Shown one piece after another: positions 1,560 to 53,267 of a stretch of DNA of 64,000 nucleotides (its first letter is position 1; the number at the start of each line of letters is the position of its first letter). This DNA is from Mustelus asterias (taxonomy: Eukaryota): assembly GCF_964213995.1 (NCBI RefSeq), contig NC_135830.1:13950001-14014000 (forward strand). Direction: 5' to 3'. Position numbers and translations under genes: made by a program. Below the pieces are notes generated by a model. The model was not told where the DNA came from and made no database searches. It saw only the letters and a list, made by a program, of their open reading frames with translations.

Positions 1560-2750
1560 CAGAAACGTGAAGCCCCGCCCACTCGCTGTTGCGTCACCAA
1601 GACACCGCGCATGCGCTCTCCTCCCTGCTGAATCAAGATGGCGGCCGTTAACCTGAGCCTCGGCTCGGGAAAAAGACCGGAAGCTGCAAACACAGACCGA
1701 CGGGCTCATTTTCGAGATTTGAGGCCTTGACCAGGTATTTAGGAACCCTCTACGTCCATCCGCCGGTTCCATTACTCCCTCTATGTTTCCGCATCCTTAC
1801 CGGCTGCTGATGAGACAGAGGAACTTCGCTCCGATTGCTATCACCCACACTGTGCGTGCTGCAAACGCCGTTGCTTAATGCGCATGCTCCAGACTGTAAC
1901 ATTACTGCGCATGCGAACTACTTCCCGTGCGTTGTATGGGGACGCCTCAGCCCCGCCCCTCATTCACTCCGATTGGCTGGAGGACCAGCCGCTCCTGTTG
2001 GGTCCTCCAGACCCGCCCCTCATTCACTCCGATTGGATGGAGGACCAGCCTCTCTTGCTTGATCCTCCAGCCCCGCCCCCGCTTCCTATTGGTCCGAAGC
2101 AGCCGTCAATCTGTCCCCGGGGCATTGTGATGTGGAGCATGCGCAGTGTCATTGCTGTCCTTGGCGCTTGTTTGTCCCGGAGAAGCGGAGTCAGCGTTAG
2201 GCGGTGGCTGGGAGGATTTGGAAACACTTTGTGGATCCGCAAACCCTTCAGAATCATTGTCAGCTCCCTGGTTTGCAGCTGCGGGGCTTCTCCCTCCCTC
2301 CCTCCCTCCCTCCCTCCCGGGAACAGGCCCAGGTTAACGGCCCCATCCTGGCTCAGCCACCGTCTTTTACCAGGACCTCCTCACTGTCTGGAACAAGGTC
2401 GCCTTGCGACGCAGCTCTCCCCCGTCAGGAGTAGCAGCTCTCGTGCGAGAGCCGCTGCTCAGGAATCCGCTCCTCCAGCCGTATGACTTCAGGTGGCTGG
2501 CAGAGAGGAGGGCTGTGGACGCCGGGGTGACCTGAATTGGGGACGTGCTCGATGGCGGAGGGGCGGGCTGGATGAGTCCCCGTGTGCTGGCTGAGCCCCG
2601 CCCACCCCCACGTGGGCTCGGGTTCCGCCCCCTCATTGTCCACATGCGGCAGATTGACCAATGGCAACGCCTGGAGGACCGGATGAACGCTGGTCCTCCA
2701 GCCAATCAGAGTCCGGGCCCTGTGTCAATGGCCGCGCGGAGTTTCCTGTG
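1560..2750. promoter_or_regulatory. CpG-rich bidirectional promoter / first exons of ZNF pair 1
   Basis: CpG-dense; YY1 motif caagatggcggc (~1634), NRF1-like gcgcatgcgc (1607, 1907), repeated GC boxes and CCAAT boxes; minus-strand donor G|GTAAGG at 1800. Confidence 0.75.
1945..2100 (+). repeat. 60-bp tandem repeat (about 2.5 copies) carrying a GC box and inverted CCAAT
   Basis: cccgcccctcattcactccgattgg recurs at exactly 60-bp spacing (1952, 2012, partial 2072). Confidence 0.9.
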
Positions 2751-2764
2751 GATATGAATGTGGG

Positions 2765-3995
2765 GGTTCGATCAGTGAGTTTGCTGATGGTCCAAAAATT
2801 GGTGATGTGGTAAATAGCGAGGAGGAAAACCTTAGATTACAGGATGATGTGGACGAGCAGGTTCGGTGGGCAGAACAGTGGCAAATGTGATTTAACCCTG
2901 AAATGTCTGAGGTGATGCATTTTGGAAGGACTAACAAGGCAAAGGAACTCGGCCTTTTGGCTGAGATCGGGTGTAGTGTGGTCGGCAGCCCATGGTCGGC
3001 CGCACTTGGTCGGGGTCATTGGGTTGCGCTGGGGCTTCATGTGTTTCATATGAAGCAATTTTTAAAAGCGTCATCTCGGCCTTTTGGCTGAGGTGCAGAT
3101 GGGTTCAAGTCTTGGAGGAGGAGCCTCCCCCTTCTCCAATCAGCTTGGCTCATGTGGATCGGGCCCGGGACAGGGTGGTTTGGTCGCTCGCCCTGTCTTG
3201 TCGGCCTGGATCTGGGGTGTCTCAACTTGTTGGGACTCTGAATTGGATTTGATTTGATTGAATTGGAAAAGTATTAAAAAAAAGGAACAGATAATGAACA
3301 ATAGGACGCCAGGAAGTACAGAAGACCAGAGGGACCTTGGGGTGCATGTCCATTGGACCCCGAAGACAGCAGGACAGATTGATGAACTGGTTAAGAAGGG
3401 ATATGGGATACTTGTCTTTTTTAGCCAAGGCATCAAATATTTCAGCAGGCAGGTTATGATTGAGTGTATAAAATGCTGGAGTACTGTTTGCAGTTCGGGT
3501 CGCCACACTTTAGGAAGGATGTGATTGCACTGGAGAAGGTGCAGAGGAGATTCACCAGGATGTTGCCTGGGCTGGAACGTGTCAGTCATGAAGAGAGGCT
3601 GGTTAGGCTCGAATTGGTCTCCCTAAAGCAGAGAAGGCTGAGGGGGGGGCCTGATTGAGATGTACAAAAATATGATCCCTCAGTCCACTGACCTTTAGTA
3701 GCTGGGTCAATATCCAGGGACATAGATTTAAGTGAGGGGCAGGAAATTTAGAGGGGATTTGAGGGAAAAGATTTTCACCCAGAGGGTGGTGGGAATCTGG
3801 AACTCACTGCCTGAAAGGGTGAGAGAGGTGGGAACGCTCAACATTAAGAAGCATTTAGATAAGTACTTGAAGTGCCATAACATATAAGGCTGCTACTGAC
3901 CAAGTGGTGAAAGGTGGGATTAGAACAGATTGGTGCTTGAGAGCTAGCACAAATACGATGGGTCAAAGGGCCTCTTGCTGTGCTTTAAAACTCTG
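2765..3995 (+). mobile_element. CR1 LINE 3' fragment hosting the U2-headed insertion
   Basis: FADG/D, EVMHFG, RDLGVHVH, LEYCLQFGSPH and LEKVQRRFTRMLPGL motifs in fragmented frames. Confidence 0.9.
2948..3280 (+). mobile_element. U2-snRNA-headed short retroposon (dimeric, A-tailed, 7-bp TSD)
   Basis: U2 nt 8-39 match at 2948-2979 (28/32); second U2 nt 7-27 match at 3074-3094; A-rich tail; TSD aaaggaa at 2941-2947 and 3281-3287, and removing the insert restores contiguous CR1 sequence. Confidence 0.8.
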
Positions 3996-4798
3996 AGGAC
4001 AGAATTATGACAGTGTGGTTATGTGATAAATATTGGATGGATCTATAATAAAGTACATTTATTATTATTTCTTGTCTTGTAATGTAGTACTGTAGCTACG
4101 TTATATATTTCTAGTCAGAGTCATTACAGCAGAGGAGGAGTCCATTGGACAATTCGAGGCCCTGCTGACTCTCTGTCGAGCAATTCTGTCAGTCTGGAGA
4201 GGGTCCCATTCTGTACTCCTGCAGCACCCATCCAATCTCATTGAGAAATTACTGATCATCTCTGCTTGACTACCCTCACAGGCAGCAAGTTCAGGAGCAT
4301 GACTAATCACTACCCCCATATCTTAACCAACTTACAGATTTAGGGGAATGAGTGGGGAAAGAATGTTCTATCGAAACTAGAATTATCTGTTCTGAATTTT
4401 GATCCCGTAGTGACTCTGATGTCTGCTGCAAACTCCTTTTATAGGATATCAGAAGGTTAGGATCCATTGACAGAATCCCAAACCATATGCCACGTCAAGA
4501 TTTGACAGTCGCTCAATTCATCTGGACCTGAATACCATCGGCCTTTGCATCTAGAAGGAGAAATGTTTCTCTGTTCTGTCTGCTTCAGAAGGCGTTAAAC
4601 GTCAGTGTGACTGGAAATGCACCAACGCACACACACCCGAGTGAGAGTGTTCCAGTGCACTGACTGTGGAAAGAGCTTTAACCAGTTATATAGCCTGAAA
4701 ATACATCACAGCATTCACAGTGGGCAGAGACTGTACCTGTGTTCTGTGTGAGGTTTAACTGATTGTTTAACCTGGAGAGTCACAAGGACACCCGCACC

Positions 4799-5641
4799 AT
4801 GGAGAAACCGTGGAAATGTGGGGACTGTGGGAAGGGATTCAGATTCCCATCTCGGCTGGAAATTCATCGACGTATTCACACTGAGGAGTGGCCATTCACC
4901 TGCTCTGTGTGTGGCATGGGATTCACTTATTTCTCCAAGTTGTTGAACCACAAAGTCACTCTCACCAATGAGAGACCCTTTAAATGCTCCGACTGTGGGA
5001 GCAGCTTCAAAAGGTCGCAGGAACTGCTGAGACACGAGCGAATTCACACTGAGGAGAAACCGTTCAGCTGCTCTCAATGCTCAAAGAGATTTAGATCAAC
5101 ATCCAACCTGCAGGAACACCAGCGAGTTCACACCAGTGAGAGACCCTTTAAATGCTCCGACTGTGGGAGTGAATTCAAAAGGTCTCAGGATCTGAGGGAC
5201 CACCAGCACATTCACACCGAGGAGAGGCCGTTCAGCTGCTCTCACTGCACAAAGAGGTTTAGAACATCATCCCACCTGCAGAGACACCAGCGAATTCACA
5301 CTGGGGAGAAACCATTCACCTGCTCTGTGTGTGGGAAGGGATTCACTGATTCATTCAACCTGCGGGAACACCAGCGAACTCACATTGGGGAGAGGCCATT
5401 TATCTGCTGTGTGTGTGGAAAGGGATTCACCCGGGCATCCAGCCTGCTGACACACCAGCGGGTTCACACTGGGGAGGGGCTGTTTACCTGCTCTCACTGT
5501 GGGAAGGGATTCACTCAGTTATCCAGACTGCAGGTACACGTTCGAGTTCACACTGGGGAGAGACCATTCACCTGCTCTGTATGTGGAAAGGGATTCACTC
5601 AGTCAACATCCCTGCAGAGACACCAGCGAGTTCACAAGTGA
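4799..5641 (+). CDS. C2H2 zinc-finger protein ZNF-1 (10 fingers, one degenerate; no KRAB seen)
   Basis: ORF 4763..5641, first ATG 4799 (MEKPWKC); tandem CxxC...HxxxH with TGE(K/R)PF linkers; splice acceptor at 4443-4444. Confidence 0.85.
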
Positions 5642-9945: not shown

Positions 9946-11347
9946 TTTATCGATAAGTTTCTTGTTCTTAGTTTCCAAATAGCAGGTAAGAGATCTGTCC
10001 AGTCCCCACTCAAGTTCTGATTTTTCACTGGCCATGCTTGGGTCAGTTTATAACCATTAGAATCTACTCTGAGGTCTGCTTTTCAGTCCAGTGCTATTTG
10101 GAGTATACCGTTACTTCACCGACTAACGGGTCACAAGTCCCTCAAAGTTCTTATCACAAATTTGGGATAAAATAATTTAAATAATGCCTGAGAACGCTTA
10201 TTAACTTCTTAACCAACTATCTGCCACTGTTTGTTGATTGGTCAGACCTCCTCTTCACAGATTCGGGTATCTCAGCCGCTGAACACCAGCCGGTCCTGGA
10301 ACAAGTTTAATTCTAACTCATTCTGAGTAAATATTCTCACCAGCTCCTCTGTCGGGGCCCTGCTAAGCAGCTTTAATGGTCCGTGATTGCAGTAACTGAG
10401 CAGTCACAGGAATGTGGTCAAGATAGTCCAGTCCCATAATGCCTCACATTCAATCTGCAGTCCTTCAATTATAACAGAATATGTGGCTGTCTGTAGCTGC
10501 CTCGGCCATGGTCAACCCCAACACTGCCTTCTTGAACTGTTATAATGCCTGAGGTGTAAGTACACCCACAGTGCTGTTAGGGAGCGATTTCCAGCTACAC
10601 ATTCCAGACTTTCACGAGACTGTAGGTGGATTCCAGATTGATATATTCCATTCAACCACACCCAAGGTGAGTTATTGCAATTTCTTTATTGTCCAGGATA
10701 ATATATTCACAATATCTTTAAAACAGAAATTAAACATTCCCATTTGATTTCAGGTATTAACATATTCTGTTAGTTTGTTCTTTATTGTCAATGTCAGGCT
10801 GGGGTTGTTCCCCTTGGAGCAAAGGAGGTTGAGGGGAGATTTGATCGAGGTGGACAAGATTCTGACAGGTTTAGATAAGGTGGACAAAGAAAAGCTGTTC
10901 CCATTAGCTGATGGGACAAGGACGAGGAGGACACAGATTTAAGGTTCTGGATCAGAGATGCAGGGGGGATGTGAGGAAGAATATTTTGATGCAGCGAATG
11001 GTAATGACCTGGAACTCGCTGCCTACGAGGGAGGAGGAAGTGGAGACAATAAACAATTACAAAGGAAATTGGATGGACATTTGTGGGGTTTCAAACAGAA
11101 ATGCTGACTAATTATCTCTTAACCTCCAAATAACCTGTCACTCTGTGATCCTTGTGAAATCTGAATCCAGGTATTCACAAAAGGCTCAAAGAGCATCGGC
11201 CCCCTGGACGAAAAGTCATGAGACCGGCCAGTCCAGCAGAAAGAAACCCTCTGACCCTCCCCATTGATCAACTGTGAGAATGAACAAAATGCAGTCCTGG
11301 ATGTAATTGAGAGCAGAAACAATCACAGCAGAATCCAACCCCTGGAA

Positions 11348-11936
11348 TCACTCGTGAACTTGTTGATGTTTCAGCAGCTGAGATGAAACTATGAATCGCT
11401 TCCCACACTGAGAGCAAGTGAACGGCCTCTCCCCAGTGTGAACTCGCTGGTGTCTCTGCAAGTCTGAAGACTGAATGAATCCCTTCCCACACAGAGCAGG
11501 TGAACGGCCTCTCCCCAGTATGAACTCGCTGGTGTCTCCGCCATTCAGAATACAAAGCGAATTCCTTTCCACACTGAATGCAGATATACGGCCTCTCCCC
11601 AGTGTGAACTCGCTGGTGTGAATGCAGGTGGGATGATTGACTGTAATTCTTCCCACACTGAGAGCAGGTGAACGGCCTCTCCCCAGTGTGAACTCGCTGG
11701 TGTGTCTGCAGGCTGGATAACCGAGTGAATCCCTTCCCGCACTGAGAGCAGGTGAATGGTTTCTCCCCAGTGTGAACTCGCTGGTGTTGCTGCAGGTGGC
11801 CTGACTCAGTGAATCCCTTCCCACACTGAGAGCAGATGAATGGTCTCTCCCCAGTGTGGCTGCGCCGATGAGCTTCCAGCTCTGATGGGGCTCTGTATCT
11901 CTTCCCACAGTCTGCACATTTCCATGGTTTCTCCAT
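11348..11936 (-). pseudogene. C2H2 ZNF-2 (7 fingers), 2-bp frameshift in finger 6
   Basis: ORF 11268..11936 gives five fingers then leaves frame at ~11490 (TGCTCTGTGTGGGAAG); the last fingers are in the frame of ORF 11348..11971; acceptor at 12373-12374. Confidence 0.8.
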
Positions 11937-13684
11937 GGCTCAGATGGACAATCAGTTAAAGCTCCATCCACACACAGAACACGGGTAGAGTCTCTTCCCT
12001 TTGGGAATGGTGTGATATTTATTCAGGCTGTGTAACTGGTTAAACCTCTTTATTCAGTGCACTGGAATACTCTCACTTGAGTGTGGCAGTGTGTTGGTGC
12101 TTTTCCAGACTTACTGGTGTTTGAAATCTTTTCAAATCGGCAGACTGGATAACCATTCCTCCTTCTAGACTCAAGGCCGATGATATTCAGGTCCAAAGGA
12201 ATTTGACTCTGTCAGATCTGGACATGACGTTTGAGATTATGGCCTGTGATTCCTCTTTCAATATCCTGTAATATCCTCCTCCTAGATTCAAAGGCCGATG
12301 TTAAGGTCCCGATGAATTGGGAGACTCTGTCAAATGTTGACTTTTGTCTGTAAATCCTCACCTTCTGATATCCTGTAAAAGGAGTTTACAAAAGAAATCA
12401 GAGTCAGTACAGGATAGAAATTCAGAACAGACAATTCTAGTTTCTATTGAATATTCTTTCCTTTCTCATTCCCCAAAAGCTGTAAATCTCCATCCCACAC
12501 ACTCTCCCTCAATTCTCACTCTGCTGTATCTAATATTCACCCTCCCAATTCTCCTGAAGGGACCAATTCTTGCTGACCAACAGATCCATGCTCACCGATT
12601 TTATGTGTTAACTGGACTAAAAAACCCATGTAATACACAGTATTGTGTTACTGGATATATGGGGGATGAGTGGAAGAACTTGATTTCAGCAGCATGTGGA
12701 AGTGGAGGTAGATGGCACCAGAAGGTAATAAACTGGCAAATTTACTTGCAATGGGGATATGGAGGGGTAACGGGACTGACTGAATGTAACCAGGACTTGA
12801 AAATTATGAGAGGCCGAGAAAGGGTAAAAAGGACTGACATGTTTCCCACAGTCGAGGAGCGATTAACAGGGAACATAGGCATAACACTGAAAATGTCAGA
12901 GGTCAAGAGTCTGATGAAGGGTCAACCAGACTTTAAATGTTGGCTCCATTCTCTTGCCACTGATGCTGTCAGACCTGCTGAGATTTTTCAGCATTTTCTG
13001 TGTGTTTTTTTCAGATTGCAGCATCCGCACTATTTTGCTTTTTTGCATAGATTTAAAGTGACTGGTAGATGGTTTACAGGGGGCAAGAGGAAAAACCTTT
13101 TCTCCCAGAGGGAGGTCAGCATCTCAAATGCAGCCGAAGTTGAGATGAAGCTGAAACGAGATTCGGCATGGACTTGTATTACTGAATGAACTCCTTCTGT
13201 GCTGTAATGACCAAGACTGGAAATGTATAACATATCTACAGTATTATATTACAAAACCAGACATAATAATAAATGTATTTCATTACAGAACCATAAATAA
13301 TACATCTAATCTGTCCCATAAACAACACTAGACATATCTCTGTCCTATATTAATTTATTGTCCCCTTAAATGTCAGTCATCTCCTGGGGAAACCAGCGCT
13401 TTAATTCGGAAAGAGATCATGCTTTGAGCCAGACAAATAAATGTGTCAAGCTGCGGGAGCAAAGGATGTCAATGTCTTTGAAAGAGAGAGACCTGGGCCA
13501 ACCTTTCCAGAGTCTGCAGCGTCCCTGGATTCACTTTCTTTCCCTTCAGTTGCTGCAACTCCCCAATTTCCCCCCAGAATGAGAAAAGAAATGGAAAGGG
13601 GGAGAAAAGAAAGTGTTTTACTCACAGATGCTGAAGACAGGAGGAAGTTTGAGTCTGTCTGTACTCAATCTTCATTCACAGAGA

Positions 13685-17339: not shown

Positions 17340-18819
17340 AGGGTAGTTCCAGCTGATTGGAAAACGGCTACTGTTACGCCGCTGTTTAAAAAAGGAAGTA
17401 GACAAAAGGCGGGTAACTACAGGCCGGTTAGCTTAACGTCTGTAGTTGGGAAAATGCTGGAATCCATCATTAAAGAAGGAATAACAGGCCATCTGGATAA
17501 GAATGGTTCGATCAAGCAGACGCAGCATTGATTCATGAGAGGAAAGTCGTGTTTGACGAACTTACTGGATTTTTATGAAGATGTGACTAGTGCGGTTGAC
17601 GGAGGGGAACCAGTAGATGTGGTGTTTTTGGATTTCCAAAAGGCATTCGATAAGGTGCCTCACAAAAGGTTGCTGCAGAAGATTGGGGCACACGGAGTTG
17701 GGGGTAGGGTGTTAGCGTGGATTGGGGATTGGCTATCTAACAGGAAGCAGAGAGTTGGAATAAATGGGTGCTTTTCTGGTTGGCAGATGGTGACTAGTGG
17801 CGTGCCGCAGGGATCGGTACTGGGGCCTCAACTGTTTACTATTTACAGAGATGATCTGGAGGAGGGGTCTGAGTGTAGGGTAACAAAGTTTGCTGATGAC
17901 ACGAAGATGAGTGGGAAAGTGAATTGCGTGGAGGAAGTGGAGGGTCTGCAGAGAGATTTGAATAGGCTGAGTGAGTGGGCGAGGATCTGGCAGATGGAGT
18001 ATAACGTTAGCAAATGCGAGGTTATCCACTTTGGAAGAAATAATAGTAAATTGGTTTATTATTTAAATGGAAAAAAATTACAACATGCTACTGTGCAGAG
18101 GGACCTGGGGGTCCTTGTGCATGAGTCGCAAAAACTCAGTCTGCAAGTACAACAGGTGATCAAGAAGGCAAATGGGATGTTGGTATTTATAACCAGGGGG
18201 ATAGAATATAAAAGCAGAGAAGTCTTGCTGCATCTGTACAAGGCATTGGTGAGGCCGCAGCTGGAATACTGTGTGCAGTTTTGGTCCCCTTACTTGCGAA
18301 AGGATATATTGGCCTTGGAGGGAGTGCAGAGAAGGTTCACCAGGTTGATACCGGAGTTGAGGGGTGTAAATTATGAGGAGAGATTGAGCAGATTGGGTTT
18401 GTATTCGTTGGAGTTTAGAAGGTTGAGGGGTGATCGTACAGAGGCATATAAAATAATGAAGGGGCTGGATAGGGTAGAAGTGGAGAGATTCTTTCCACTT
18501 AGAAAGGAAGCTGGAACTAGAGGGCACAGCCTCAAAATAAAGGGGGGTCAGTTTAGGACAGAGTTGAGGAGGAACTTCTTCTCTCAGAGGTGGTGAATCT
18601 CTGGAATTCTCTGCCCACTGAAGTGGTGGAGGCTATCTCGTTGAATATGTTTAAATCACGGAGAGATGGATTCCTGATCGGTAAGGGAATTAGGGGTTAT
18701 AGGGACCAGGCGGGTAAGTGGAACTGATCCACTTCAGATCAGCCATGATCGTATTGAATGGCGGGGCAGGCTCGAGGGGCTAGATGGCCTACTCCTGCTC
18801 CTATTTCTTATGTTCTTAT
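17340..18819 (+). mobile_element. Young 5'-truncated CR1 LINE (RT domain open 17535..18596)
   Basis: [30 protein letters not shown]; terminal frameshift; ttcttatgttcttat tail. Confidence 0.95.
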
Positions 18820-21399: not shown

Positions 21400-24310
21400 C
21401 AAATTTAGCAACCATACCTTCAATTCCTTCATCTGAGTCATTGATATAAATGGTAAAAAGGTTGAGGTCCCAGCATTGATCCCTGTGGCACACCACTCAT
21501 CACATCCAGTCAACTAGAAAAAGACCCATTTATGCCAATCCTGTTTCCTATTAACTCGCCAATCTTCTTTCCGTGCCAATATGTTACCATTCCCCCCGCC
21601 CCACTAGGAGTTTTCATTTTCCACAATAACCTTATAAATGCATTCTGGAAATCTCAGTACATTCACCTTTCTGCACCTTTGGTTCCCCTTTATCCACAGC
21701 ACATGTGACTCATTCAAAGAACTGAAAAAATAGGTTGAATATGATTTCCCTTTCTCAAAACCATGTTGACTCTCCTTCATAGCCTGGATTTTTCTCACTG
21801 CCATGCTGTAACATATTTAATAATAGCTTCTAACATTTTTCCTATGGCATGTTAAGTTAACTGTCCTGTAGTTTCCTGCTTTTGGTCTCTCTCCTTCTTT
21901 GAATAAAGGAGTTACATTTGCTACTTTCTAATCTAATGGAACTTTCACCAAAACCAGAGAATTTTGGAAAATTAAAAACAATGCATCAACTATCTCACCC
22001 CAGTCGTTTCTACCCCTCTTCAGCTAAAGAACAGCCATATGGCCTCAAAATTTCAACTCTGTTTCTCCCTCCACAGGTGCTGCCAGACCTGCTGAGTCTT
22101 TCCAGCATTTTCTGTTTTTATTTCAGATTTTCAGTATCCGCAATACTTTGCTTTTATCTGACGAGCTGCTTCTTTTCAGAGCCGAGAATGAAGTCCATCA
22201 GGGTCCGGGATTTGTCAGCCGACAGCTCCAACTATTTGCTCAGTACCACTTCATAAGTGACAGCAGTTTTCCTGAGTTCCTCTCTCCCTTCCACACCCCG
22301 ATAAGATATTACTTCTATCCTCGATACTATCGGGTACAGTACTAAACTATAGTGAAGACTGATACAAAGTACCTGTTGAATTCATCTGTCACCTCCTCAC
22401 TTTCCATTATTAATTCCCCGGAATCACTTTCTCTTGGACCAACATTCACTTGGATAACTCTTTTTTTATTCAAATATCCAGAGAAATGTTTACAGAACAA
22501 AGAGAATTACAGCACAGGAACAGGCCCTTCTGCCCTCCATGGCCCTGCACCGACCATGCTGCCTCACTGAACTAAAACCCCTACACTTCCAGGGACCATA
22601 TCCCTCTATTTCCATCCGATTCATGTAAAACTCAAGATGCCCCTTAAAAGTCACTATCGTATCCGCTTCCACTCCCTCCCCCGGCAACGAGTTCCAGGCA
22701 CCCACTACTCTCTGCGTAAAAAATCTGCCTCGTACATCTCCTTTAAACCTTGCCCCTCGCAGCTTAAACCTGTGCCCCCTGGTCATTGACTCTTCCACCC
22801 GGGAAAAAGCTTCTGACTATCCACTCTGTCCATGACCCTCATAATCTTGTAGACTTCTATCAGGTCGCCCCTCAACCTCCGTCGCTCCAGTGAGAACAAA
22901 CCAAGGTTCTCCAACCTTTCCTCATAGATAATGCCCTCCATACCAGGCAACATCCTGGTAAATCTTTTCTGTACCCTCTCCAAAGCCTCCATATCCTTCT
23001 GGTAGTGTGGCGAACAGAATTGAACACTATATTCCAAGTGCAGCCTAACTAAGGTTCTATAAAGCTGCAACATAATTTGCCAATTTTTAAACTCAATACC
23101 CCGGCCGATGAAGGTAAACATGCTGTATGCCTTCTTGACTACCTTCTCCACCTGCATTGCCACTTTCAGTGACCTGTGTACCTGTACACCCAGATCCCTT
23201 TGCCTATCAATACTCTTAAAGGTTCTGCCATTTACTGTATATTTCCTATGTATATTAGACCTTCCAAAATGCATTACCTCACATTTGTCTGGATTAAACT
23301 CCATCTGCCATTTCTCCACCCAAGTCTCCAACTGATCTATATCCTGCTGTATCCTCTGATGGTCCTCATTGCTATCCGCAAATCCACCAACCTTTGTGTC
23401 GTTCGCAAACTTACCAATCAATCCAGTTACATTTTCCTCCAAATCATTTACATATATTAGAAACAGCAAAGGTCCCAGCACTGATCCCTGAGGAACGCCA
23501 CTTGTCACAGCCCTCCATTCAGAAATGCACCCTTCCACTGCTACCCTCTGTCTTCTTTGACCACGCCAGTTTTGTACCCACCTTGCCAGCTCACCTCTGA
23601 TCCCATGCGACTTCACCTTCTGCACCAGTCTGCCATGAGGGACCTTGTCAAAGGCCTGACTGAAGTCCATGTAGACAACATCCACTGCCCTACCCTCATC
23701 AATCATCTTCGTCACTTCCCCGAAATACTCGATCAAGTTCGTGAGACATGACCTCCCCTTCACAAAACCATGTTGCCTCTCACTAATACGTCCACTTATT
23801 TCCAAGTGGGAATAAATCCTGTCTCGAAGAATCCTCTCCAATAATTTCCCTATCACTGATGTAAGGCTCACCGGCCTGTAATTACCCGGATTATTCTTGC
23901 TACCCTTCTTAAACAAAGGAACAACATTGGCTTTTCTCCAATCCTCTGGGACCTCCCCGGTAGCCAATGAGGATACAAAGATTTCTAATTTACTATCCAT
24001 CTTTATATTTCTAGCTGCCTTTCTCTCGTACTCCAATTCTTCTCCTTATTTAATCTTTTTATCATTCTTTGCTGTTTATATTCTGTCTAGTTTTCTGACC
24101 TGCCACCCATCTTTGTGCAATTGTTTACTTTTTTCTTTAAGTTTTATACTATCTTTAACTTTTTTAGTGAACCACGGATGGTGGATCCTCCCCTTGGAAT
24201 TTTTCTTCTTCACTGGAATGTATCTGTTCTGGGTTTTCTGAAATAACCCTTTCAAATCTGCCACTGCACCTCTATTGACCTGTTCCTTAACCTCATTTGC
24301 CAGTTCACTT
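21400..24310 (-). mobile_element. Old CR1 LINE with a younger CR1 nested at ~22490-23982
   Basis: ORF 22783..24036 carries the CR1 RT motifs (its first ~16 aa come from the older host); degenerate CR1 continues on both sides. Confidence 0.9.
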
Positions 24311-24856: not shown

Positions 24857-26203
24857 TCACAATAGTTCCTTGTGAATTCGCTGGTGTTTCAGCAGATTTG
24901 ATGACTGACTGAATCCCTTCCCACACACAGAGCAAGTGAACGGCTTCTCCCCAGTGTGAACTCGTTGGTGACCCTGCAACGTGTGTGAGTGAGCAAAGTC
25001 CTTCCCACATTGGGAACAAGTGAACATCCTCTCCCCAGTGTGAATCCGTTGGTGTATTGCTAGGTTGGATGATTGACTGAATCCCTTCCCACACTGGGAA
25101 CAGATGAATGGTCTCTCCCCAGTGTGAACTCGCTGATGTGTCCACAGATTGCCTGAGTGTGCAAATCCCTTCCCACACTGGGAGCAGCTGAAAGGCTTCT
25201 CCCCAGTGTGAGTTCGCTGGTGTGCCAGCAGGTGAGATGAGTCAGTGAATCGCTTCCCACACTGGGAGCAAGTTAACGGCCTCTCCCCAGTGTGAACTCG
25301 CAGGTGTATCAGGAGGTTGGATGAGCGAGCAAATCCCTTCCCACACTGGGAGCAAGTGAATGGCTTTTCCCCAGTGTGAACTCGCTGGTGTAATGATAGG
25401 TTAGATGACTGACTGAATGCCTTCCCACAAACAGAACAGCTGAATGGTCTCTCCCCAGTGTGGGTCCTCTGGTGTATGTGTAAGCTGGATGACTGAGTGA
25501 ATCCCTTCCCACACTGGGAGCAGATGAACGGCCTCTCCCCAGTGTGAATTCGCTGGTGTGTCAGCAGGTTGGCTGAGAGCGCGAATCTCTTCCCACATTG
25601 AGAACAGCTGAATGGCCTCTCCCCATTGTGAACGTGCTGGTGTTTTGTTAGCATGGATGATGCTTTGAAGCCCTTCCCACACACAGCGCAAGTGAATGGT
25701 CTGTCCTCACTGTGAATTCGCTGGTGTTTTGCTAGGTTTGATGATTGATTGAATCCCTTCCCACACACAGAGCAGGTGAATGGTTTCTCCCCCGTGTGAG
25801 TTCGCTTGTGCAATGCTAGGCTGAATGACCGATTGAATGCCTTCCCACACAGAGAGCAGGTGAATGGCCTCTCCTCAGTGTGAGTCCTCTGGTGTATATG
25901 TAAACTGGATGACTGAGTGAATCCTTTCCCACAGTGGGAGCAGGTGAATGGCCTCTCCCCTGTGTGACTACGTTGATGAATTTCCAGCAAGGATGGGGAT
26001 TTGAATCCCTTCTCACAGTCCCCACATTTCCACAGTTTCTCTCTGTTGTGACTGCAATTATGTTCCGAAAGGTCAGATGATTGGCTGAAGTCTTGTCCAC
26101 ACACAGAACATGTGTACAGTTTCTCTCCACTGTGAATAGTGCTATTTTCTTCCATGTTCAAAATGCAATGATATTCAGGGTACAATAAATTGGCCGACTC
26201 CAT
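24857..26203 (-). CDS. C2H2 zinc-finger protein ZNF-4 (15 fingers, intact)
   Basis: 448-aa ORF of uninterrupted fingers; acceptor at 26265-26266. Confidence 0.92.
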
Positions 26204-26799
26204 AAGGTGCTGATACCAGGCTTGGTTTCAGTTTCCAAACTGCAAATCCTCCTCTTCTAATACCCTGTGAAATTGAATTAAAACAGAAAAAGGGAGTGAG
26301 AGAGAACCCACAAAAACACAAAGGCAGGTTGTGAAATTGAGCTGAATGAACCTGGTAATTTGTGGGGACAGCACTAGGAAAAAGTGACCATGAAAACTGC
26401 TGGATTGTCAAAACACCCAATTGATTTCCTAATGTCCTTCAGGGAAGGGAACCTGCCATCCAGTCTGGGCACTATGGGAAAAGACAGAGAGAAATAGGAG
26501 AGATCGGGAATGAAGGAGAGGGATTTTATACATCTACAACTCAATGAGAACATTGATAGAATCTCCCAAACCCTCAACTTCCACCACCTCGAAGGACCAA
26601 GATAGCAGGTAAATGTGAGCATCATCAACTCCAAGTTCCCCTCCAACTCATATCTTGACTTGTCTGACATCCAGTACTAAAAAACAGAAATTTCTTTCAA
26701 AAAATACTGGGAAAACTGAACCCATTGTGTTCAGTCCCCACTACATTTCCGGGGTTTGGGTTTGAACAACATGTTTACAAAGCCTCTCCACCCACCCGC

Positions 26800-28195: not shown

Positions 28196-28790
28196 TTTAC
28201 AGTTTGGCCACATTATGAACACACCTTCCTCGGCCATGTACTCTGAGTGGGACTGGAAACCAGAGCTTCTGACTCAGAAGAAGGGTCACTCCCCACTGCA
28301 CCACATCTTCACAGTGCACAATCCAGACTAATAAATCCAACAGGAAAACAGGAGACATTTCTTTTCACAAACAGTTGTTAAAATGTGGAACTGACTGGAA
28401 GTAGTTGAGACAGATAACTTAGATTTTTTCAAAAGGAAACGAGATGAGAATGAGAGAAAAGTAAAGCTGAAAGGCTGAGACGAGGTTAGCAGAATGGGAG
28501 GAGACTCGTGTGGAGTAGAAACTCCGTACAGACTAGATTGCCCGAATGGCCTGTTTGTGTATTATATAGTCTATGTAATTCTTCGTGAAATTATTTTGCA
28601 GGGTAATGGAAGAGGAGGATTTGCAGTCAGGAAAAACAAACCAAACTTTGTGTCACAATTGGAAAGTCAATTCGTCAGGATGTGAAGATTTGTACACCTG
28701 AAGGGATTTAATTGACTGTCTCAGCAGGAAGCTGGTGAGAGTCTGTAAACCTGCTCTTCCTGTGGGGAGGGATTGATACAGCTGGAAAAC

Positions 28791-30131
28791 ATGCTGACAC
28801 GACAGCGAACTCGCAATAGTGAGAGTTCATTCACCTGCTCCGTGTGTGGGAAGAAATTCATGTGTTCGTCCAACCTGCTGGCTCACCAACTCGATCACAT
28901 TATTCAGAAGCCTCTTCAAAGCTCTGACTCTGGGGACAGCGTTGAAACGCCTGAGGAACAGATCCAACACCAGCTCCTTCACACTGACGAGAGACCGTTC
29001 AGCTGCTCCCACTGCGGGAAGAGGTTCAGCCAGTCCTCCCGCCTTGCAGAGCACCAGCTCCTTCACACACACGAGAGACCGTTCAGCTGCTCTCACTGTG
29101 GGGAGTCGTTCAGCAACTCAGTGCATCTCACTGAGCACCAGCAAGTTCACACCAAGGACAGGCCATTCAGCTGCTCCCAGTGTGGGAAGAGATTCTCTCA
29201 GTCCTCCCACTACACTGAGCACCAGCTCATTCATTCTGATGAGAGAAGTTTTAAATGCTCAGAGTGTGAGAAGACCTTTAAAACGAACAATAGTCTCCTG
29301 AGACACCAGTGCACTCACAGTGGGGAGAGGCCGTTCCCGTGCTCTGTGTGTGGGAAGAGATTCAATTATTCATTCCACCTTCTGAGGCACAAACTTGTTC
29401 ACACGGGGGAGAAACCATTCACCTGCTCCGAGTGTGGGAATGGATACACTCGCTCATCTCATCTTGTGATTCACCAACGAATTCACACCGGAGAAAGGCC
29501 GTTCACCTGCTCCGAGTGTGGGAGGGGATTCACTCGTTCAACGCACCTTGTGATGCACAAGCGGATTCACATTGGGGAGAGGCCATTCTCTTGCTCTGTG
29601 TGTGGGAAGAGATTCACTCAGTCATCCGCCCTGCGCACACACAAGCGAGTTCACACTGGGGAGAGACCGTTCACCTGCTTCGTGTGTGGGAAGAGTTTCC
29701 CTCGTTTGTCCCATGTTGTGATACACGAGCGGGTTCACACCGGGGAGAGGCCGTACATTTGTCATGTGTGCGGGAGGGCCTTTACTTGTTTACACCACGT
29801 GCAGAAACACCAGCTTGTTCACACCGGGGAGAAGGCCTTCATCTGCTCCGTGTGTGGGAAGCGTTTCCCTGAGTTCTCCAGCCTCCAGAGACACGAACGC
29901 ATCCACACTGGGGAGAAGCCCTTCACCTGCTGTGTGTGTGGGAAGGGATTTGTTCAGTCGTTCGACCTGGTTAAACACCGGCGAGTTCACACTAGGAAGA
30001 AGCTGCTCACCTGCTCTGTGTGTGAGAAGAGATTTACTCGGACATCCCGCCTGCTGAGACACCAGAAACTTCACATCTTACCGACAAAGCTGGACTCTGC
30101 TGTTGCTGCTGAGAATCACACCCAGGACTGA
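28791..30131 (+). CDS. C2H2 zinc-finger protein ZNF-5 (14 fingers plus 1 degenerate, intact)
   Basis: ORF 28773..30131, first ATG 28791; acceptor at 28600-28601. Confidence 0.92.
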   Translation: MLTRQRTRNSESSFTCSVCGKKFMCSSNLLAHQLDHIIQKPLQSSDSGDSVETPEEQIQHQLLHTDERPFSCSHCGKRFSQSSRLAEHQLLHTHERPFSCSHCGESFSNSVHLTEHQQVHTKDRPFSCSQCGKRFSQSSHYTEHQLIHSDERSFKCSECEKTFKTNNSLLRHQCTHSGERPFPCSVCGKRFNYSFHLLRHKLVHTGEKPFTCSECGNGYTRSSHLVIHQRIHTGERPFTCSECGRGFTRSTHLVMHKRIHIGERPFSCSVCGKRFTQSSALRTHKRVHTGERPFTCFVCGKSFPRLSHVVIHERVHTGERPYICHVCGRAFTCLHHVQKHQLVHTGEKAFICSVCGKRFPEFSSLQRHERIHTGEKPFTCCVCGKGFVQSFDLVKHRRVHTRKKLLTCSVCEKRFTRTSRLLRHQKLHILPTKLDSAVAAENHTQD

Positions 30132-34242: not shown

Positions 34243-35377
34243 GAACATAAGTACATAAGAAATAGGAGCAGGAGTAGGCCATCTAGCCCCTCGAGCCTGC
34301 CCCGCCATTCAATAAGATCATGGCTGATCTGACGTGGATCAGTACCACTTACCCGCCTGATCCCCATAACCCTTAATTCCCTTACCGATCAGGAATCCAT
34401 CCATCCGCGCTTTAAACATATTCAGCGAGGGAGCCTCCACCACCTCAGTGGGCAGAGAATTCCAGAGATTCACCACCCTCTGGGAGAAGAAGTTCCTCCT
34501 CAACTCTGTCTTAAACCGACCCCCCTTTATTTTGAGGCTGTGTCCTCTAGTTTTAACTTCCTTACTAAGTGGAAAGAATCTCTCCGCCTCCACCCTATCC
34601 AGCCCCCGCATTATCTTATAAGTCTCCATAAGATCCCCCCTCATCCTTCTAAACTCCAACGAGTACAAACCCAATCTCCTCAGCCTCTCCTCATAATCCA
34701 AACCCCTCATCTCCGGTATCAACCTGGTGAACCTTCTCTGCACTCCCTCCAATGCCAATATATCCTTCCTCATATAAGGGGACCAATACTGCACACAGTA
34801 TTCCAGCTGCGGCCTCACCAATGCCCTGTACAGGTGCATCAAGACATTCCTGCTTTTATATTCTATCCCCCTCGCAATATAGGCCAACATCCCATTTGCC
34901 TTCTTGATCACCTGTTGTACCTGCAGACTGGGCTTTTGCGTCTCATGCACAAGGACCCCCAGGTCCCTTTGCACGGTAGCATGTTTTAATTTGTTTCCAT
35001 TGAGATAGTAATCCCATTTATTATTATTTCCTCCAAAGTGTATAACCTCGCATTTCTCAACGTTATACTCCATTTGCCATATCCTCGCCCACTCACTCAG
35101 CCTGTCCAAATCTCTCTGCAGATCTTCTCCATCCTCCACACGATTCACTTTTCCACTTATCTTTGTGTCGTCTGCAAACTTCGTTACCCTACACTCCGTC
35201 CCCTCCTCCAGATCATCTATATAAATGGTAAACAGTTGCGGCCCGAGTACCGATCCCTGCGGCACGCCACTAGTTACCTTCCTCCAACCGGAAAAACACC
35301 CATTTATTCCGACTCTTTGCTTCCTGTCGGATAGCCAGTCCCCAATCCACTTTAACACACTTTAACACACTACCCCC
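34243..35377 (-). mobile_element. Young 5'-truncated CR1 LINE with intact RT C-terminus
   Basis: ORF 34339..35358; closely similar to 17340-18819; possible TSD aaataa at 34237-34242 and 35378-35383. Confidence 0.95.
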
Positions 35378-35796: not shown

Positions 35797-36720
35797 TCAT
35801 TTGTGAACTTTCTGGTGTCTCAAAAGATGGGATGAGTGGATGAATGTCTTCCCACAGTCGGAGCAAAGGAATGGCCTCTCCCCAGTGTGAACTCGCTGGT
35901 GTGTCAGAAGATTGGCTGAATGAATGAATCCTTTTCCACACGTGGAGCAGGTGAACGACCTCTCCCCAGTGTGAACTCGCTGGTGTTTCTGGAGGCTGGA
36001 TGACAGAGTGAATCCTGTCCCACACACTGTACATCTGAATGGCCTCTCCCCATTGTGAACTCGCTGGTGTGTCAGCAGGTCAGTTGTGGTTCTGTAAGTC
36101 TTCTCACACTCAGAGCATTTGAAAAGTCTTTTATCCGTGTGAACCAGTTGGTGTTTAGCGAGGTGGGATGATCGTGCAAATGCCTTCTCACACACAGCGC
36201 AGGTGAAGGGCCTCTCCCCAGTGTGAACCCGCTGGTGTATCAGCAATTCACTTGTGGTTTTATAACTCTTCTCACATTCAGTACATTTGAAAGGTCTGTT
36301 ATCAGTGTGAACCAGACGATGTGTAGTGAGGTAGGATAATCGCGTGAATCCCTTCCCACACACAGAGCAGGTGAATGGCCTCTCCCCAGTGTGAGTGCGT
36401 TCATGTTCGATGAGGTTCTGTGATCGTATGAACCCCCTCCCACAGTGAGAGCAACTGAACTGTCTCTCAGTGTGAACAACCTGGTGCGTAACCAGGTCCT
36501 CCGAGATTTTAAAGTTGCTTTCACAGTCCGAGCGGTTTAACAGCTTCTCATCAAGGTGAACTTGCTGGTGTGAAAGCAGGTGGGATGACTGAATGAATCC
36601 CTTCCCACACATGGAGCAGGTGAATGGTCTCTCCCCAGTGTGACTGCGTTGATGATTTTTAAGCTGGGAAGGGTAACTGAACCCCTTAGCGCAATATGCA
36701 CATTTCCACTGTTTCTCCAT
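35797..36720 (-). CDS. C2H2 zinc-finger protein ZNF-7 (10 fingers plus 1 degenerate, intact)
   Basis: 307-aa ORF; acceptor at 37063-37064; putative first-exon donor at 41951. Confidence 0.9.
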   Translation of the reverse strand: MEKQWKCAYCAKGFSYPSQLKNHQRSHTGERPFTCSMCGKGFIQSSHLLSHQQVHLDEKLLNRSDCESNFKISEDLVTHQVVHTERQFSCSHCGRGFIRSQNLIEHERTHTGERPFTCSVCGKGFTRLSYLTTHRLVHTDNRPFKCTECEKSYKTTSELLIHQRVHTGERPFTCAVCEKAFARSSHLAKHQLVHTDKRLFKCSECEKTYRTTTDLLTHQRVHNGERPFRCTVCGTGFTLSSSLQKHQRVHTGERSFTCSTCGKGFIHSANLLTHQRVHTGERPFLCSDCGKTFIHSSHLLRHQKVHK

Positions 36721-37459
36721 GGTGCTGGTGTCCTTGTGTATCTCCAGGTTGGATGATCAGTTGAAGCCTCATCCACACACAGAACACGTCATGTTTTCTC
36801 CTGGCTGTGAATGTTGTGATGTTTTTTTCAGGCTGTGTAACTGGTTAAAGCTCTTTCCACACTCAGTTCACTGGAACACTCTCACTCGGGTGTGTGTGTG
36901 TCTCGGTGCTTTTCCAGTCACACTGATGTTTGCAAAACATTTCTGCTTCCACATTCAAAGGTCGATGATAATCAGGTTCTGATGAATGGAACAATTTTGT
37001 TGTATTTTTTGTGTGATGTTGTGTTTGAGTTTCACATTTGCAAAACTTCCTCTTCTAATACCCTGTAAAAGGAGTTTACAAAAATTATCATTGTAACATG
37101 ATAGAAATTCAGAACAGATATTTCATTTTTTATTGAATATTCTTTTCCCTTGTTTGTTTCCTCAAATATGTAGTCCAAACAAACTAAAAGAAGAAAAAGA
37201 TCAGCAACAAAGTACCAACAAGAAGAAAGGTTAGCTTCCTAATGAACCAGAATGTTGTTTCCAATGTCTTGAAGTTACTTTGTACCCTGCGATGCTCATC
37301 AGTTGTGGAAGGTAGCAAGTGTATCAGTGGACACCACATGCTCCCTCTCCAGGAGAGACTGCAAGGATATGCGACATCCACCCAATTGCTATGGACACTG
37401 CTCATTCAGCTTCAACAAATTGTTGTTTGAATCTGGCCCAAGAGCAGGTCCAGGAGAAG

Positions 37460-38503: not shown

Positions 38504-39182
38504 CAGAGGGATACAGACCGAGCAAAGGCAGAAGGTTTTTTGTAAATTAGGGTATCATGATTGGCATAGACTTGGAGGATCAAAGGGTTTGTTCCTGTGC
38601 TGTACTTTTCTTTGTTCTCCCCAACTTCCCCCCACACAGCCAAAGACTAGGAGGTTGGGGCGAAAGTGTTAACAAAGGTTGCGGAGCAGCTCCTTCAGGT
38701 AACTATACAGGGCTGCAACATCTCACACTGAATATAGAATCCCGACAGTGCAGAATATGCCATTTCACCCATTGAGTATGCAATGACTCTCTGACAGAGC
38801 ATCTTAGCCAGGTGTTCTTCCTCACCCTATCCTGGTAACCTCACAATTTCCCATTTAACCTGCACGTCTTGGGACACTAAGAGGCAATTTAACATGGGCA
38901 ATCCACATCTTTGGGCTATAATATAATATTAATATAATGTAAACATGGCCCATGGACTCCTTTGGGCTGCAAACATCAGCTGCAGCCTGGGAGTGGGTGA
39001 AGCTGTTTAAAATCTGTTAACACAGTAAGAAGTTTAACAACACCAGGTTAAAGTCCAACAGGTTTATTTGGTAGCAAAAGCCACACAAGCTTTCGAGGCT
39101 CTGAGCCCCTTCTTCAGGTGAGTGGGAATTCTGTTCACAAACAGAACTTATAAGACACAGACTCAATTTACATGAATAATGG

Positions 39183-42130: not shown

Positions 42131-42942
42131 TAGTGATTATTTTTGCTGTGTTGTGGAGATTGTGGCGGGTGGGGAAACCGATAAAATTAGGAACAAAATC
42201 ATAAATTACACCAAGTGTACAGACCCTTAATTATCAACCAGAAAGAAGGAAAATGGGGATTGCTGAAAGACTGTCCTTTTAGGTATTGAAAATATATTTA
42301 TAATGAGAAGAAAATCAATCTGTGCAGCTTTAGTGAATATCGATATGCAAAGAGTAAGATGAAAGACTTTTAATCACCTCAAACACTTGGCATAGAACTG
42401 TCTGAAACTCAAAACAGAAGCTTCAGGAAATCAATGATAAAATGAGCATTTATAAATATGTAAATATATATATCTATATAGATATATATAAATGAGCATT
42501 TACACCGTTGACAGAAGACATTTTTAAATGTAAATTATTTACACTCAATCATTTTTGTATTCATTTGTGGGACATGGTTGCCAGCATTTCTTGCCCATCT
42601 CTAAGTTGCCCTTGGTGGGCATTTAAGATTCAACCACATTGCTGTGGCTTTGGTATCACATGTTTTAATGACAATGTTACAATCCATAATTATCCATGTG
42701 GCAGAATGTATCCCATCAGTGACTGGTTCTCTATTCTGAATTTCTGAGCTGAACTGACAGTGATGACATTTGCAAACTTCTTTTACAGGATATTAAAAGG
42801 GAAAAACTTGCCATAAGAAATCTCAAACCAAACTTCACACCAAGATCAGACAGAGTCACTCAATTTTATAGGATGGGGTAAACCATCACCCATTTTACCA
42901 TCCCTGTGACTGGAAAAGCACCGAGACACAGACACCGACACC

Positions 42943-50573: not shown

Positions 50574-50919
50574 ATGTGAGGAAGAATATTTTGATGCAGC
50601 GAATGGTAATGACCTGGAACTCGCTGCCTACGAGGGAGGAGGAAGTGGAGACAATAAACAATTACAAAGGAAATTGGATGGGCATTGGGGCGTTTCAAAC
50701 AGAAATGCTGACTAAATATCTCTGAACTTCCTAACATCCTGTCACTCTGTGATCCTTGTGAAATCTGAAACCAGGTATTCGCAACAAAACTCAAAGAGCA
50801 TCAGCCCAATGGAGGCAAAGTTGTGAGACCGGCCAGTCCAGCAGAAAGAAACCCTCCAACTCTCCCCATTGACCGATATAATTGAAAGCAGAAACAAGAA
50901 CAGCAAAATCGAACACTGG

Positions 50920-53228: not shown

Positions 53229-53267
53229 AGTTTTTGTACAGGAGTCAGGCTGCTTTCCATCACTGTG
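53229..53267 (-). other. V(D)J recombination signal sequence, 23-bp spacer
   Basis: CACAGTG (53267-53261), 23 nt, ACAAAAACT (53237-53229). Confidence 0.97.

What the first reader, a model, noticed from the sequence alone, without database searches (positions are those of the whole stretch)
2941..3287. Dimeric U2-snRNA-headed short retroposon: candidate shark SINEU-like family
Seen: a 333-bp insert splits a CR1, is bounded by the TSD aaaggaa, ends in an A tail, starts with U2 snRNA nt 8-39, and carries a second U2 5' copy (nt 7-27) at 3074. Each U2 piece is followed by non-U2 hairpin-forming sequence. Known: the U2-targeting non-LTR elements Keno (Tx1 clade) and Utopia insert near U2 nt 37-38, and snRNA-headed SINEU elements are described from crocodilians. 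Inference: this is a non-autonomous element born from a U2 gene carrying a target-specific insertion, transcribed from the U2 promoter and retroposed away from U2 loci. I do not know of such a family being described in sharks.
Basis: partly seen in the sequence, partly recalled or inferred. Interest (0 to 1): 0.8.

Follow-up and report, generated by a model that had tools for sequence, protein, structure and literature searches.

The report
U2-headed fish retroposon, apparently RNA-edited copy
This is one copy of an abundant short jumping element of cartilaginous fishes that carries two pieces of the U2 splicing RNA, a type I found in print only for crocodilians, and the copy shows a one-way run of A-to-G changes suggesting its RNA was chemically edited before being written back into DNA.

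Summary
Observation confirmed. A 333-bp insert (2948-3280) with a 7-bp duplication splits a CR1; uninterrupted CR1 relatives join across it. It holds U2 nt 8-37 and nt 7-27. Parts are far deeper than single contigs in runs of four organisms, with poly-A ends and varied 3' flanks shown in two: a real, dispersed SINEU-type family. The host is a cartilaginous fish. It is not a dimer: the two bodies are unrelated.

New: this copy has G where relatives have A at 13 of 17 shown places in the insert (flanks 5 of 22; no C/T counterpart), and 5 of 5 differences from U2 are A-to-G. The best reading is ADAR editing of the folded RNA before retroposition (about 70%); the 3'-G preference fits, the 5'-G depletion does not. 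In relatives an octamer motif lies in the second U2 piece.

Birth from a Keno insertion in a U2 gene is possible but unshown; the partner LINE and promoter are unknown. Ten paper searches found no such shark family; Repbase and Dfam could not be checked. The scan noted a U2-headed SINE once before, on apparently arthropod DNA.

The parts
2781..2947 (+). CR1 LINE fragment (ORF2 C-terminal part), left half of the interrupted host element; its start is approximate
   Evidence: translation; CR1-type contigs lie on it in all four runs
2941..2947 (+). left copy of the 7-bp target-site duplication
   Evidence: empty-site joint 2940 to 3281 with 7 letters fitting either side (table 5)
2948..2977 (+). 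first U2 piece, U2 nt 8-37 (stem I and the start of the branch-site recognition region); differs from U2 at 2963, 2969, 2970, all G for A
   Evidence: Rfam alignment
2975..3006 (+). 12-bp hairpin of the first body; its three non-Watson-Crick pairs are all G.U
3034..3056 (+). 10-bp hairpin, one G.U pair
3059..3063 (+). run of five T, a possible RNA polymerase III stop (two T4 runs lie in the U2 pieces)
3074..3109 (+). second U2 piece: nt 7-27, then 7 other letters, then (in the state of relatives) a repeat of U2 nt 24-31; 3093-3100 reads as the octamer motif in relatives, not in this copy
   Evidence: table 3 rows 3090, 3093, 3098, 3102, 3104
3112..3139 (+). 10-bp hairpin of the second body, one G.U pair
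3156..3211 (+). long stem of the second body, holding four of the G-for-A places (3156, 3161, 3167, 3203)
3219..3236 (+). terminal 8-bp hairpin; complementary throughout when 3233 is A, as in relatives
3237..3275 (+). 3' end with short GAATT/GATTT-type repeats; holds the deepest bin in all four runs; relatives in organisms B and D carry an AATAAA before the A run
   Evidence: tables 2 and 7
3276..3280 (+). short A tail (5 A, running into the AAA of the right duplication copy)
3281..3287 (+). right copy of the 7-bp target-site duplication
3288..3990 (+). CR1 fragment, right half (end of ORF2 and 3' region); its end is approximate
   Evidence: translation and matches to other CR1 copies of the window

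Best explanation
The insert is one retroposed copy of a high-copy, non-coding, SINEU-type element of cartilaginous fishes. Shown: insertion into an old CR1 with a 7-bp duplication and an A tail; two 5' pieces of U2; a strongly folded RNA; many relatives in four organisms. Inferred from the anatomy and from crocodilian SINEU: the element grew by successive addition of U2 5' pieces, probably by template switching during reverse transcription; it is transcribed by RNA polymerase II (T runs inside, AATAAA and poly-A at the end of relatives, an octamer motif inside); and an L1/Tx1-clade LINE inserts it by target-primed reverse transcription at an A-rich nick. Inferred from the substitution pattern: the RNA that gave this copy, or the founder of its subfamily, was A-to-I edited by ADAR on its hairpins. 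Reverse transcription read inosine as G and fixed at least 16 A-to-G changes (about 5% of the element) in germline DNA. Odds: family and retroposition about 0.9; editing about 0.7; Tx1/L1-type partner about 0.65; octamer functional about 0.25.
For: Duplication and empty site. Abundance: summed contig depth over the insert bins 2960-3284 is 42,000 to 1,350,000 in X2 and reaches 1,470,000 in X6, 203,000 in X5 and 188,000 in X7, against 3-66 for the single contigs listed and at most 81,000 for any CR1 bin (the tool warns that this is no copy number). Dispersal: loose ends behind 3267/3268 in 132 contigs of X5 and 54 + 105 of X7, median 130-255 letters, agreement about 0.6, consensus A-rich (table 7). 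One X2 contig joins a tail (3283) to a head starting at 2948 with 11 letters between (table 5c). Direction of change: of 17 places shown inside the insert, 13 are window G / relatives A, none the reverse and none window C / relatives T; in the CR1 flanks 5 of 22 rows (Fisher p = 0.0013; strand asymmetry p = 0.0016). Against U2, 5 of 9 A positions differ, all to G, and 0 of 41 other positions (p = 6e-5), so A is the ancestral letter. A 30-letter loose end of X6 differs from 3011-3040 at 9 places, 6 of them window G / relative A (read by eye). G follows 9 of 16 changed sites against 12 of 50 unchanged A (p = 0.03), as for ADAR (PMC4365171). U2 A23, opposite C, is changed in both U2 pieces. Setting 17 sites to A costs 6 kcal/mol against a mean of 26 for random G sets (0 of 200 as good). 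In five non-U2 stems, all 8 non-Watson-Crick pairs inside the stems are G.U.
Against: No depletion of G before the changed sites: 5 of 16 against 15 of 50 (p = 1), whereas ADAR sites are depleted. The 3'-G excess weakens to p = 0.10 with the six X6 sites added. Changed sites are not more often in duplex than unchanged A (11 of 16 against 33 of 50), nor more often opposite U than other G (7 of 17 against 21 of 91, p = 0.14). Only 40 of 195 difference rows were shown. Three of the 13 G letters (3123, 3161, 3215) are shared by 11-25% of the depth in X2, so they may be subfamily variants. Position 3104 is T where three runs show A, a change that editing does not give. The whole-stretch tallies (G>A 38, 72, 36, 59 against C>T 19, 26, 16, 21) are close to the G:C ratio of 228:123 and add little. 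No listed contig matches the CR1 flanks closely, so the runs are probably other species and lineage divergence is mixed in. No contig spans the element, and 2985-3034 has no cover in X5 and X7. No partner LINE, master copy or transcript was seen.
Confidence: 0.65

Rival explanations
1. One reading: a U2 gene with a Keno (or Utopia) insertion at nt 37-38 was transcribed from the U2 promoter, lost its inside and became the master copy; the body is Keno 5' and 3' untranslated sequence.
For: The first U2 piece ends at nt 37-39, the Keno/Utopia site. Crocodilian Tx1-Mar groups with Keno, and some members carry U2 heads (PMC4494074). This would explain polymerase II transcription.
Against: The second piece ends at nt 27 with a repeat of nt 24-31, not at the site. 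This copy is in a CR1 and, by eye, its target has little likeness to U2. Flanks of relatives are varied. The crocodilian study ascribes such heads to template switching. No Keno sequence could be compared.
Confidence: 0.3
2. The G letters are ordinary divergence of a lineage-specific subfamily, favoured by selection for stronger stems or by a mutational bias, with no RNA editing.
For: The runs are probably not the window's species (table 8). No 5'-G depletion and no duplex enrichment. Seven of 17 sites pair with C in the window's fold. Some G are shared with 11-25% of X2 depth.
Against: Double-strand processes predict window C / relative T as well: 0 against 13. Seven other sites turn A-U into weaker G.U pairs. 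The older CR1 flanks of the same locus show no such bias (5 against 4 reverse). U2 pieces change only at A.
Confidence: 0.2
3. A one-off chimera: a U2 fragment and the first body were joined to a common, shorter element during this one insertion, so the two-headed form is not a family.
For: Depth over 2960-3034 is about a tenth of that over 3035-3084 in X2, under 900 in X6, and at most 36 in X5 and X7; no contig spans the element.
Against: That part still has depth 42,000-85,000 in X2; X6 has a related sequence for 3011-3040; a second head starting at 2948 follows a tail in an X2 contig. Low cover is expected where the query is dense in changes and where U2-like, hence human-like, contigs are filtered out.
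Confidence: 0.12
4. The G letters are ancestral and relatives lost them by APOBEC-type G-to-A editing or CpG decay.
For: Three of the 13 places (and 2969) are in CG context in the window; G-to-A editing of retroelements is documented (PMC2873906).
Against: U2 itself has A at five of the sites; 10 of 13 places are not CpG; A dominates in every run that covers most sites.
Confidence: 0.03

Closest known systems
SINEU-1 and SINEU-3 of crocodilians (Kojima 2015, PMC4494074; parts 1-4 of 5 of the text read; figures and supplements not seen)
   Same: Short non-coding retroposon with U2 5' pieces, more than one snRNA piece per element, partial duplication inside a piece, inner T runs, poly-A tail, short duplications, head-to-tail copies.
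   Different: Cartilaginous fish (the paper found none outside crocodilians); apparently far more abundant than the 137-7,700 copies given there; this copy is in a CR1, not in Mariner-N4_AMi; relatives hold an octamer motif, whereas no promoter-like sequence was found in SINEU; A-to-G changes were not reported in the text read. Homology of the bodies could not be tested.
Keno (Tx1 clade) and Utopia, U2-targeting LINEs (PMC4640811 and PMC6136364, passages; Kojima and Fujiwara 2004 not read)
   Same: U2 sequence ending near nt 37-38 directly before non-U2 sequence.
   Different: They are protein-coding, sit inside U2 genes and are followed by U2 from nt 39; here there is no ORF and no 3' U2 flank.
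tRNA-headed SINEs of cartilaginous fishes: SacSINE1, CmiSINEs (PMC5499810, passages); HE1 (recalled)
   Same: Abundant short retroposons of the same animal group.
   Different: tRNA heads with polymerase III boxes and L2 tails (HE1: CR1-type tail, recalled). The word snRNA does not occur in PMC5499810; no tRNA gene was found in the window.
ADAR hyper-edited repeat RNAs, and APOBEC-edited retroelements fixed in genomes (PMC4365171 and PMC2873906, passages)
   Same: A cluster of one kind of mismatch on one strand in a folded repeat sequence.
   Different: A-to-G clusters are described there in RNA reads and G-to-A clusters in genomic copies; here the A-to-G cluster lies in a genomic insertion. 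A-to-G hypermutated retroviral proviruses are recalled from older literature and come from no call.

Membership tests
SINEU (structural class) | 5' head derived from U1 or U2 snRNA | tested here: met
   U2 nt 8-37 at the 5' end and nt 7-27 inside
SINEU (structural class) | short (under 500 bp), non-coding | tested here: met
   333 bp; no sense-strand ORF of 130 aa over it (one antisense stop-to-stop frame, 3140-3622, overlaps it and runs mostly over the CR1)
SINEU (structural class) | 3' poly-A tail and signs of LINE-type insertion | tested here: met
   A tail and 7-bp duplication with empty-site joints; A-rich loose ends in X5 and X7
SINEU (structural class) | many dispersed copies | tested here: met
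   depth and varied 3' flanks (tables 2 and 7); flank rows were shown for 2 of the 4 runs
SINEU (structural class) | copies share one fixed structure (not a sum of independent chimeras) | tested here: inconclusive
   all 29 bins covered in X2 and X6, 27 in X5 and X7; no contig spans the element; one tail-to-head joint at 2948
SINEU (structural class) | oligo-T inside, no polymerase III promoter | tested here: met
   T4, T5, T4 runs; no tRNA gene found; no Rfam family at gathering score; A and B boxes were not scanned separately
crocodilian SINEU-1/-2/-3 (families) | sequence homology of the non-U2 body | not testable with these tools
   consensus sequences are in Repbase and in figures; supplement unavailable
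crocodilian SINEU-1/-2/-3 (families) | [quoted passage not shown] | tested here: inconclusive
   this single copy is in a CR1; the preference is only 13-23% for SINEU-1 and -2; the partner could not be searched
Keno / Utopia | encodes endonuclease and reverse transcriptase | tested here: not met
   333 bp, no such ORF
Keno / Utopia | inserted in a U2 gene, followed by U2 from nt 39 | tested here: not met
   both flanks are CR1
dimeric SINE (Alu-type, two homologous monomers) | monomer bodies homologous | tested here: not met
   score reached by 288 of 1000 shuffles, 121 of 1000 with A and G merged
ADAR hyper-edited sequence | cluster of A-to-G on one strand | tested here: met
   13 of 17 shown places; 5 of 5 against U2
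ADAR hyper-edited sequence | double-stranded substrate | tested here: met
   z = -6.2; but no enrichment of changed sites in duplex over unchanged A
ADAR hyper-edited sequence | G enriched 3' of the site | tested here: inconclusive
   p = 0.03 for 16 sites, 0.10 for 22
ADAR hyper-edited sequence | G depleted 5' of the site | tested here: not met
   5 of 16 against 15 of 50; the sample is small, and neighbours that were themselves changed may be miscounted as G
ADAR hyper-edited sequence | editing seen in RNA against DNA of the same animal | not testable with these tools
   no RNA holder listed; contigs only

The most novel reading that the evidence does not exclude
Cartilaginous fishes independently evolved a very abundant snRNA-headed retroposon family. 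It carries its own snRNA-type enhancer (an octamer made by a small insertion in the U2 piece), which would answer how SINEU-type elements are transcribed. Its hairpin RNA is routinely hyper-edited by ADAR in the germline and then retroposed, so that RNA editing acts as an inherited mutagen, leaves a countable record of edited copies and seeds new subfamilies.
Probability: 0.22. Interest if true: 0.82.

Novelty: new variant of a known kind. Interest (0 to 1): 0.62.

Why it matters
In the papers I could read, snRNA-headed SINEs are a crocodilian oddity whose transcription is called an open question (PMC4494074). A second, apparently much larger and probably independent family in cartilaginous fishes would show that the design recurs, and would give thousands of copies with which to find the master copy, the promoter and the partner LINE. 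A copy with strand-specific A-to-G changes would be direct evidence that germline RNA editing can be written into DNA through retroposition. With many copies of one short, folded element, the rate and site preference of that process become measurable from a genome assembly alone.

Tried and rejected
No whole genome is held for the window. There is no second copy in the 64-kb window: only the inner 18-nt repeat and short low-complexity matches. Pattern scans found nothing in metagenome contigs, viral contigs or prokaryote genomes, so no full second copy could be read. No RNA holder listed; this is no evidence on expression. Of 17 runs listed, 4 were laid (X2, X5, X6, X7); the small shares of the other 13 were not used. 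Rfam gave no family at gathering score in the window and only U2 plus chance hits at E up to 10. The dimer reading was rejected. Position 2978 was counted among 17 sites and dropped (16 sites) because it lies at the edge of the U2 match. Whole-stretch substitution tallies were set aside because they follow base composition. The G.U pairs at 2985, 2999, 3002, 3041, 3118 and 3168 look like further A-to-G changes but were not among the 40 rows shown, so they were not counted. A Sm-site-like reading of 3057-3065 was dropped: it lacks the closing G of the recalled consensus and Rfam gave no U4 or U5 hit. By eye I saw no PSE-like sequence inside the element. The V-segment search gave no named relative; the CR1 search served for the animal group. 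Earlier notes of the scan: none by sequence, by place or for edited retrocopies; one by words. The SINEU paper's supplements were unavailable; they and its Fig. 1B may bear on head lengths and body homology.

Full report
Observation. The sequence has AAAGGAA at 2941-2947 and 3281-3287 around a 333-bp insert. The flanks translate as the C-terminal part of a CR1 ORF2, and taking out the insert with one repeat copy restores one frame across the site. Laying contigs of four public runs on 2760-3480 (4 of the 17 runs listed) showed CR1 relatives that join 2940 to 3281 with 7 letters fitting either side (2 contigs in X2, 1 in X5). Their consensus after 2947 lines up without a gap with the window from 3288, so the repeat is a true target-site duplication. 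The 7-mer occurs 23 times in the window. The A tail is short: 5 A, 8 with the duplication.

U2 pieces. Rfam finds no family at gathering score in the window. At loose thresholds U2 is the top hit by bits, with weak scores. The printed alignments show 2948-2977 as U2 nt 8-37 with three differences and, read on by eye, 3074-3094 as nt 7-27 with two. In the letters that relatives carry (rows 3102 and 3104), 3102-3109 repeats U2 nt 24-31, so the second piece holds a small insertion and a partial duplication. The two bodies are not homologous (288 of 1000 shuffles reach the score; 121 of 1000 with A and G merged). The element is a composite with two U2 pieces, not a dimer. Its RNA folds into a row of hairpins, z = -6.2, with 0 of 100 shuffles as stable.

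Host. Named relatives of a CR1 protein of the window are closest in cartilaginous fishes (bamboo shark 69%, stingray 67%, chimaera 66-67%, skate 66%) against about 40-56% in birds and turtles. The window is therefore from a cartilaginous fish; 'shark' is likely but not shown. It holds C2H2 zinc-finger exons, CR1 copies, a Penelope-like ORF and a T-cell receptor V segment. The insert lies between a GC- and CpG-rich stretch (1700-2750) and a zinc-finger exon at 4763-5641, probably in an intron and in sense (inference).

A real family. There is no second copy in the window, no genome is held, and four pattern scans were empty. In one search the summed contig depth over the insert bins is 42,000 to 1,350,000 in X2. 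It peaks at 1,470,000 in X6, 203,000 in X5 and 188,000 in X7, always at 3235-3259, against 3-66 for single listed contigs and at most 81,000 for a CR1 bin. The tool warns that this is no copy number; thousands to tens of thousands of copies is my inference. Behind 3267/3268, 132 contigs of X5 and 54 + 105 of X7 run on into A-rich and then disagreeing sequence (median 130-255 letters, agreement about 0.6), as dispersed poly-A insertions would; both show AATAAA before the A run. Such rows for X2 and X6 were not among the 24 of 1,533 shown. One X2 contig joins a tail to a head that starts at 2948. Limits: no contig spans the element; 2985-3034 has no cover in X5 and X7; contigs resembling human DNA, which an unchanged U2 head would, are filtered out; and no listed contig matches the CR1 flanks closely, so the runs are probably not the window's species.

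The copy is A-to-G shifted. Of the 40 of 195 difference rows shown, 18 rows (17 places) lie in the insert and 22 in the flanks. In the insert 13 places are window G / relatives A, none the reverse and none window C / relatives T; the other four places (3071, 3104, 3110, 3248) have window T. In the flanks 5 of 22 rows are G/A and 4 the reverse (p = 0.0013; strand asymmetry p = 0.0016 given the G:C content). U2 fixes the direction: 5 of 9 A positions differ, all to G, and 0 of 41 others (p = 6e-5). An X6 loose end adds 6 G/A among 9 differences over 3011-3040 (by eye). Ten of the 13 places are not CpG. A one-strand, one-way change on a folded RNA is what ADAR gives. For it: G follows 9 of 16 sites against 12 of 50 unchanged A (p = 0.03); A23, opposite C, is changed in both U2 pieces; A26 is changed only in the piece where its partner U7 is present; the A state keeps the fold (-142 against -148 kcal/mol; random sets -123; 0 of 200 as good). 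Against it: no 5'-G depletion (5 of 16 against 15 of 50), which is the main ADAR motif (PMC4365171; PMC2873906); the 3' excess fades to p = 0.10 with 22 sites; no duplex enrichment; three G are shared by 11-25% of X2 depth; 3104 is not an editing-type change. I put editing at about 0.7 and cannot tell whether it struck this copy's RNA or a founder's.

Octamer. With the A that 93-99.6% of the depth shows at 3093 and 3098 in all four runs, 3093-3100 reads ATGCAAAT, the octamer of snRNA distal elements (name and role recalled). It occurs nowhere in the window as it stands. A given 8-mer turns up in 333 bp on either strand about once in a hundred times (my estimate), and I noticed it after the fact, so it is a lead only. 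It matters because no promoter-like sequence was found in crocodilian SINEU.

How it most likely works. Shown: insertion with duplication and A tail, U2 pieces, structure, many relatives. Inferred: polymerase II transcription (inner T runs; AATAAA and poly-A in relatives), from a flanking or U2 promoter or helped by the octamer; mobilisation in trans by an L1/Tx1-clade LINE, since a 7-bp duplication that starts with A and a poly-A end fit that clade better than CR1 or L2 (established knowledge, not tested); growth by 5' addition of U2 pieces through template switching, as argued for SINEU; ADAR editing of the RNA before reverse transcription.

Comparison and novelty. It works like crocodilian SINEU-1 and -3 and meets the structural features that I could test; homology with those families could not be tested, and an independent origin is likely (inference). 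It fails membership of Keno and Utopia. Ten paper searches listed no snRNA-headed SINE of sharks or rays and, by titles and abstract starts, no report of A-to-G edited SINE copies in genomic DNA. The library lacks most subscription journals and Repbase Reports, and Repbase and Dfam could not be searched, so the family may already have a database name (I put that near 0.4).

What I saw of each paper: PMC4494074, parts 1-4 of 5 of the text, no figures or supplements; PMC4640811, PMC5499810, PMC2873906, PMC5381603, PMC4365171, PMC4758252, PMC5786205, PMC13343379 and PMC6136364, passages around search terms only; all others, search listings only; Kojima and Fujiwara 2004, nothing (cited through others).

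Verdict. Real, a new variant of a known kind, interest 0.62: a SINEU-type family outside crocodilians, with a copy that probably records RNA editing.

Noticed in passing
window 53189-53587, minus strand: A T-cell receptor alpha/delta-type V segment in open frame, followed by a heptamer and a nonamer-like sequence at about 23-nt spacing, lies inside a C2H2 zinc-finger gene cluster; it may be an orphan V gene or the edge of a TCR locus.
   Followed up: partly
window 39180-41039, plus strand: An open frame of 619 aa that reads like a Penelope-type element (reverse transcriptase followed by a GIY-YIG-like end; family name from recall), with no stop, so probably young.
   Followed up: no
window 4763-5641, 11268-11939, 24857-26227, 28749-30131, 35797-36756, 42910-43581, 50742-52218: A cluster of C2H2 zinc-finger exons on both strands, some with frame breaks.
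   Followed up: no
window 3093-3100: Reads as the octamer motif in the letters carried by relatives in all four runs; lost in this copy by two G-for-A changes.
   Followed up: partly
run X2, joint 3283 to 2948: One contig joins the tail of one copy to the head of another with 11 letters between, a head-to-tail pair as described for SINEU-3 (table 5c).
   Followed up: no
window 3112-3139 and 3169-3200: Loose ends in X6 and X2 show other loop and stem letters here, in X6 apparently keeping the hairpin; these suggest subfamilies with conserved structure (table 7; read by eye).
   Followed up: no
window 17532-18596, 22783-24045, 34339-35361, 48975-49571, 62380-62910: Several further CR1 copies with long open frames, of at least two kinds by their peptides.
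   Followed up: partly
window 1700-2750: GC- and CpG-rich stretch with repeated CCAAT- and GC-box-like words just upstream of the CR1, probably the promoter of the zinc-finger gene at 4763 (inference).
   Followed up: no
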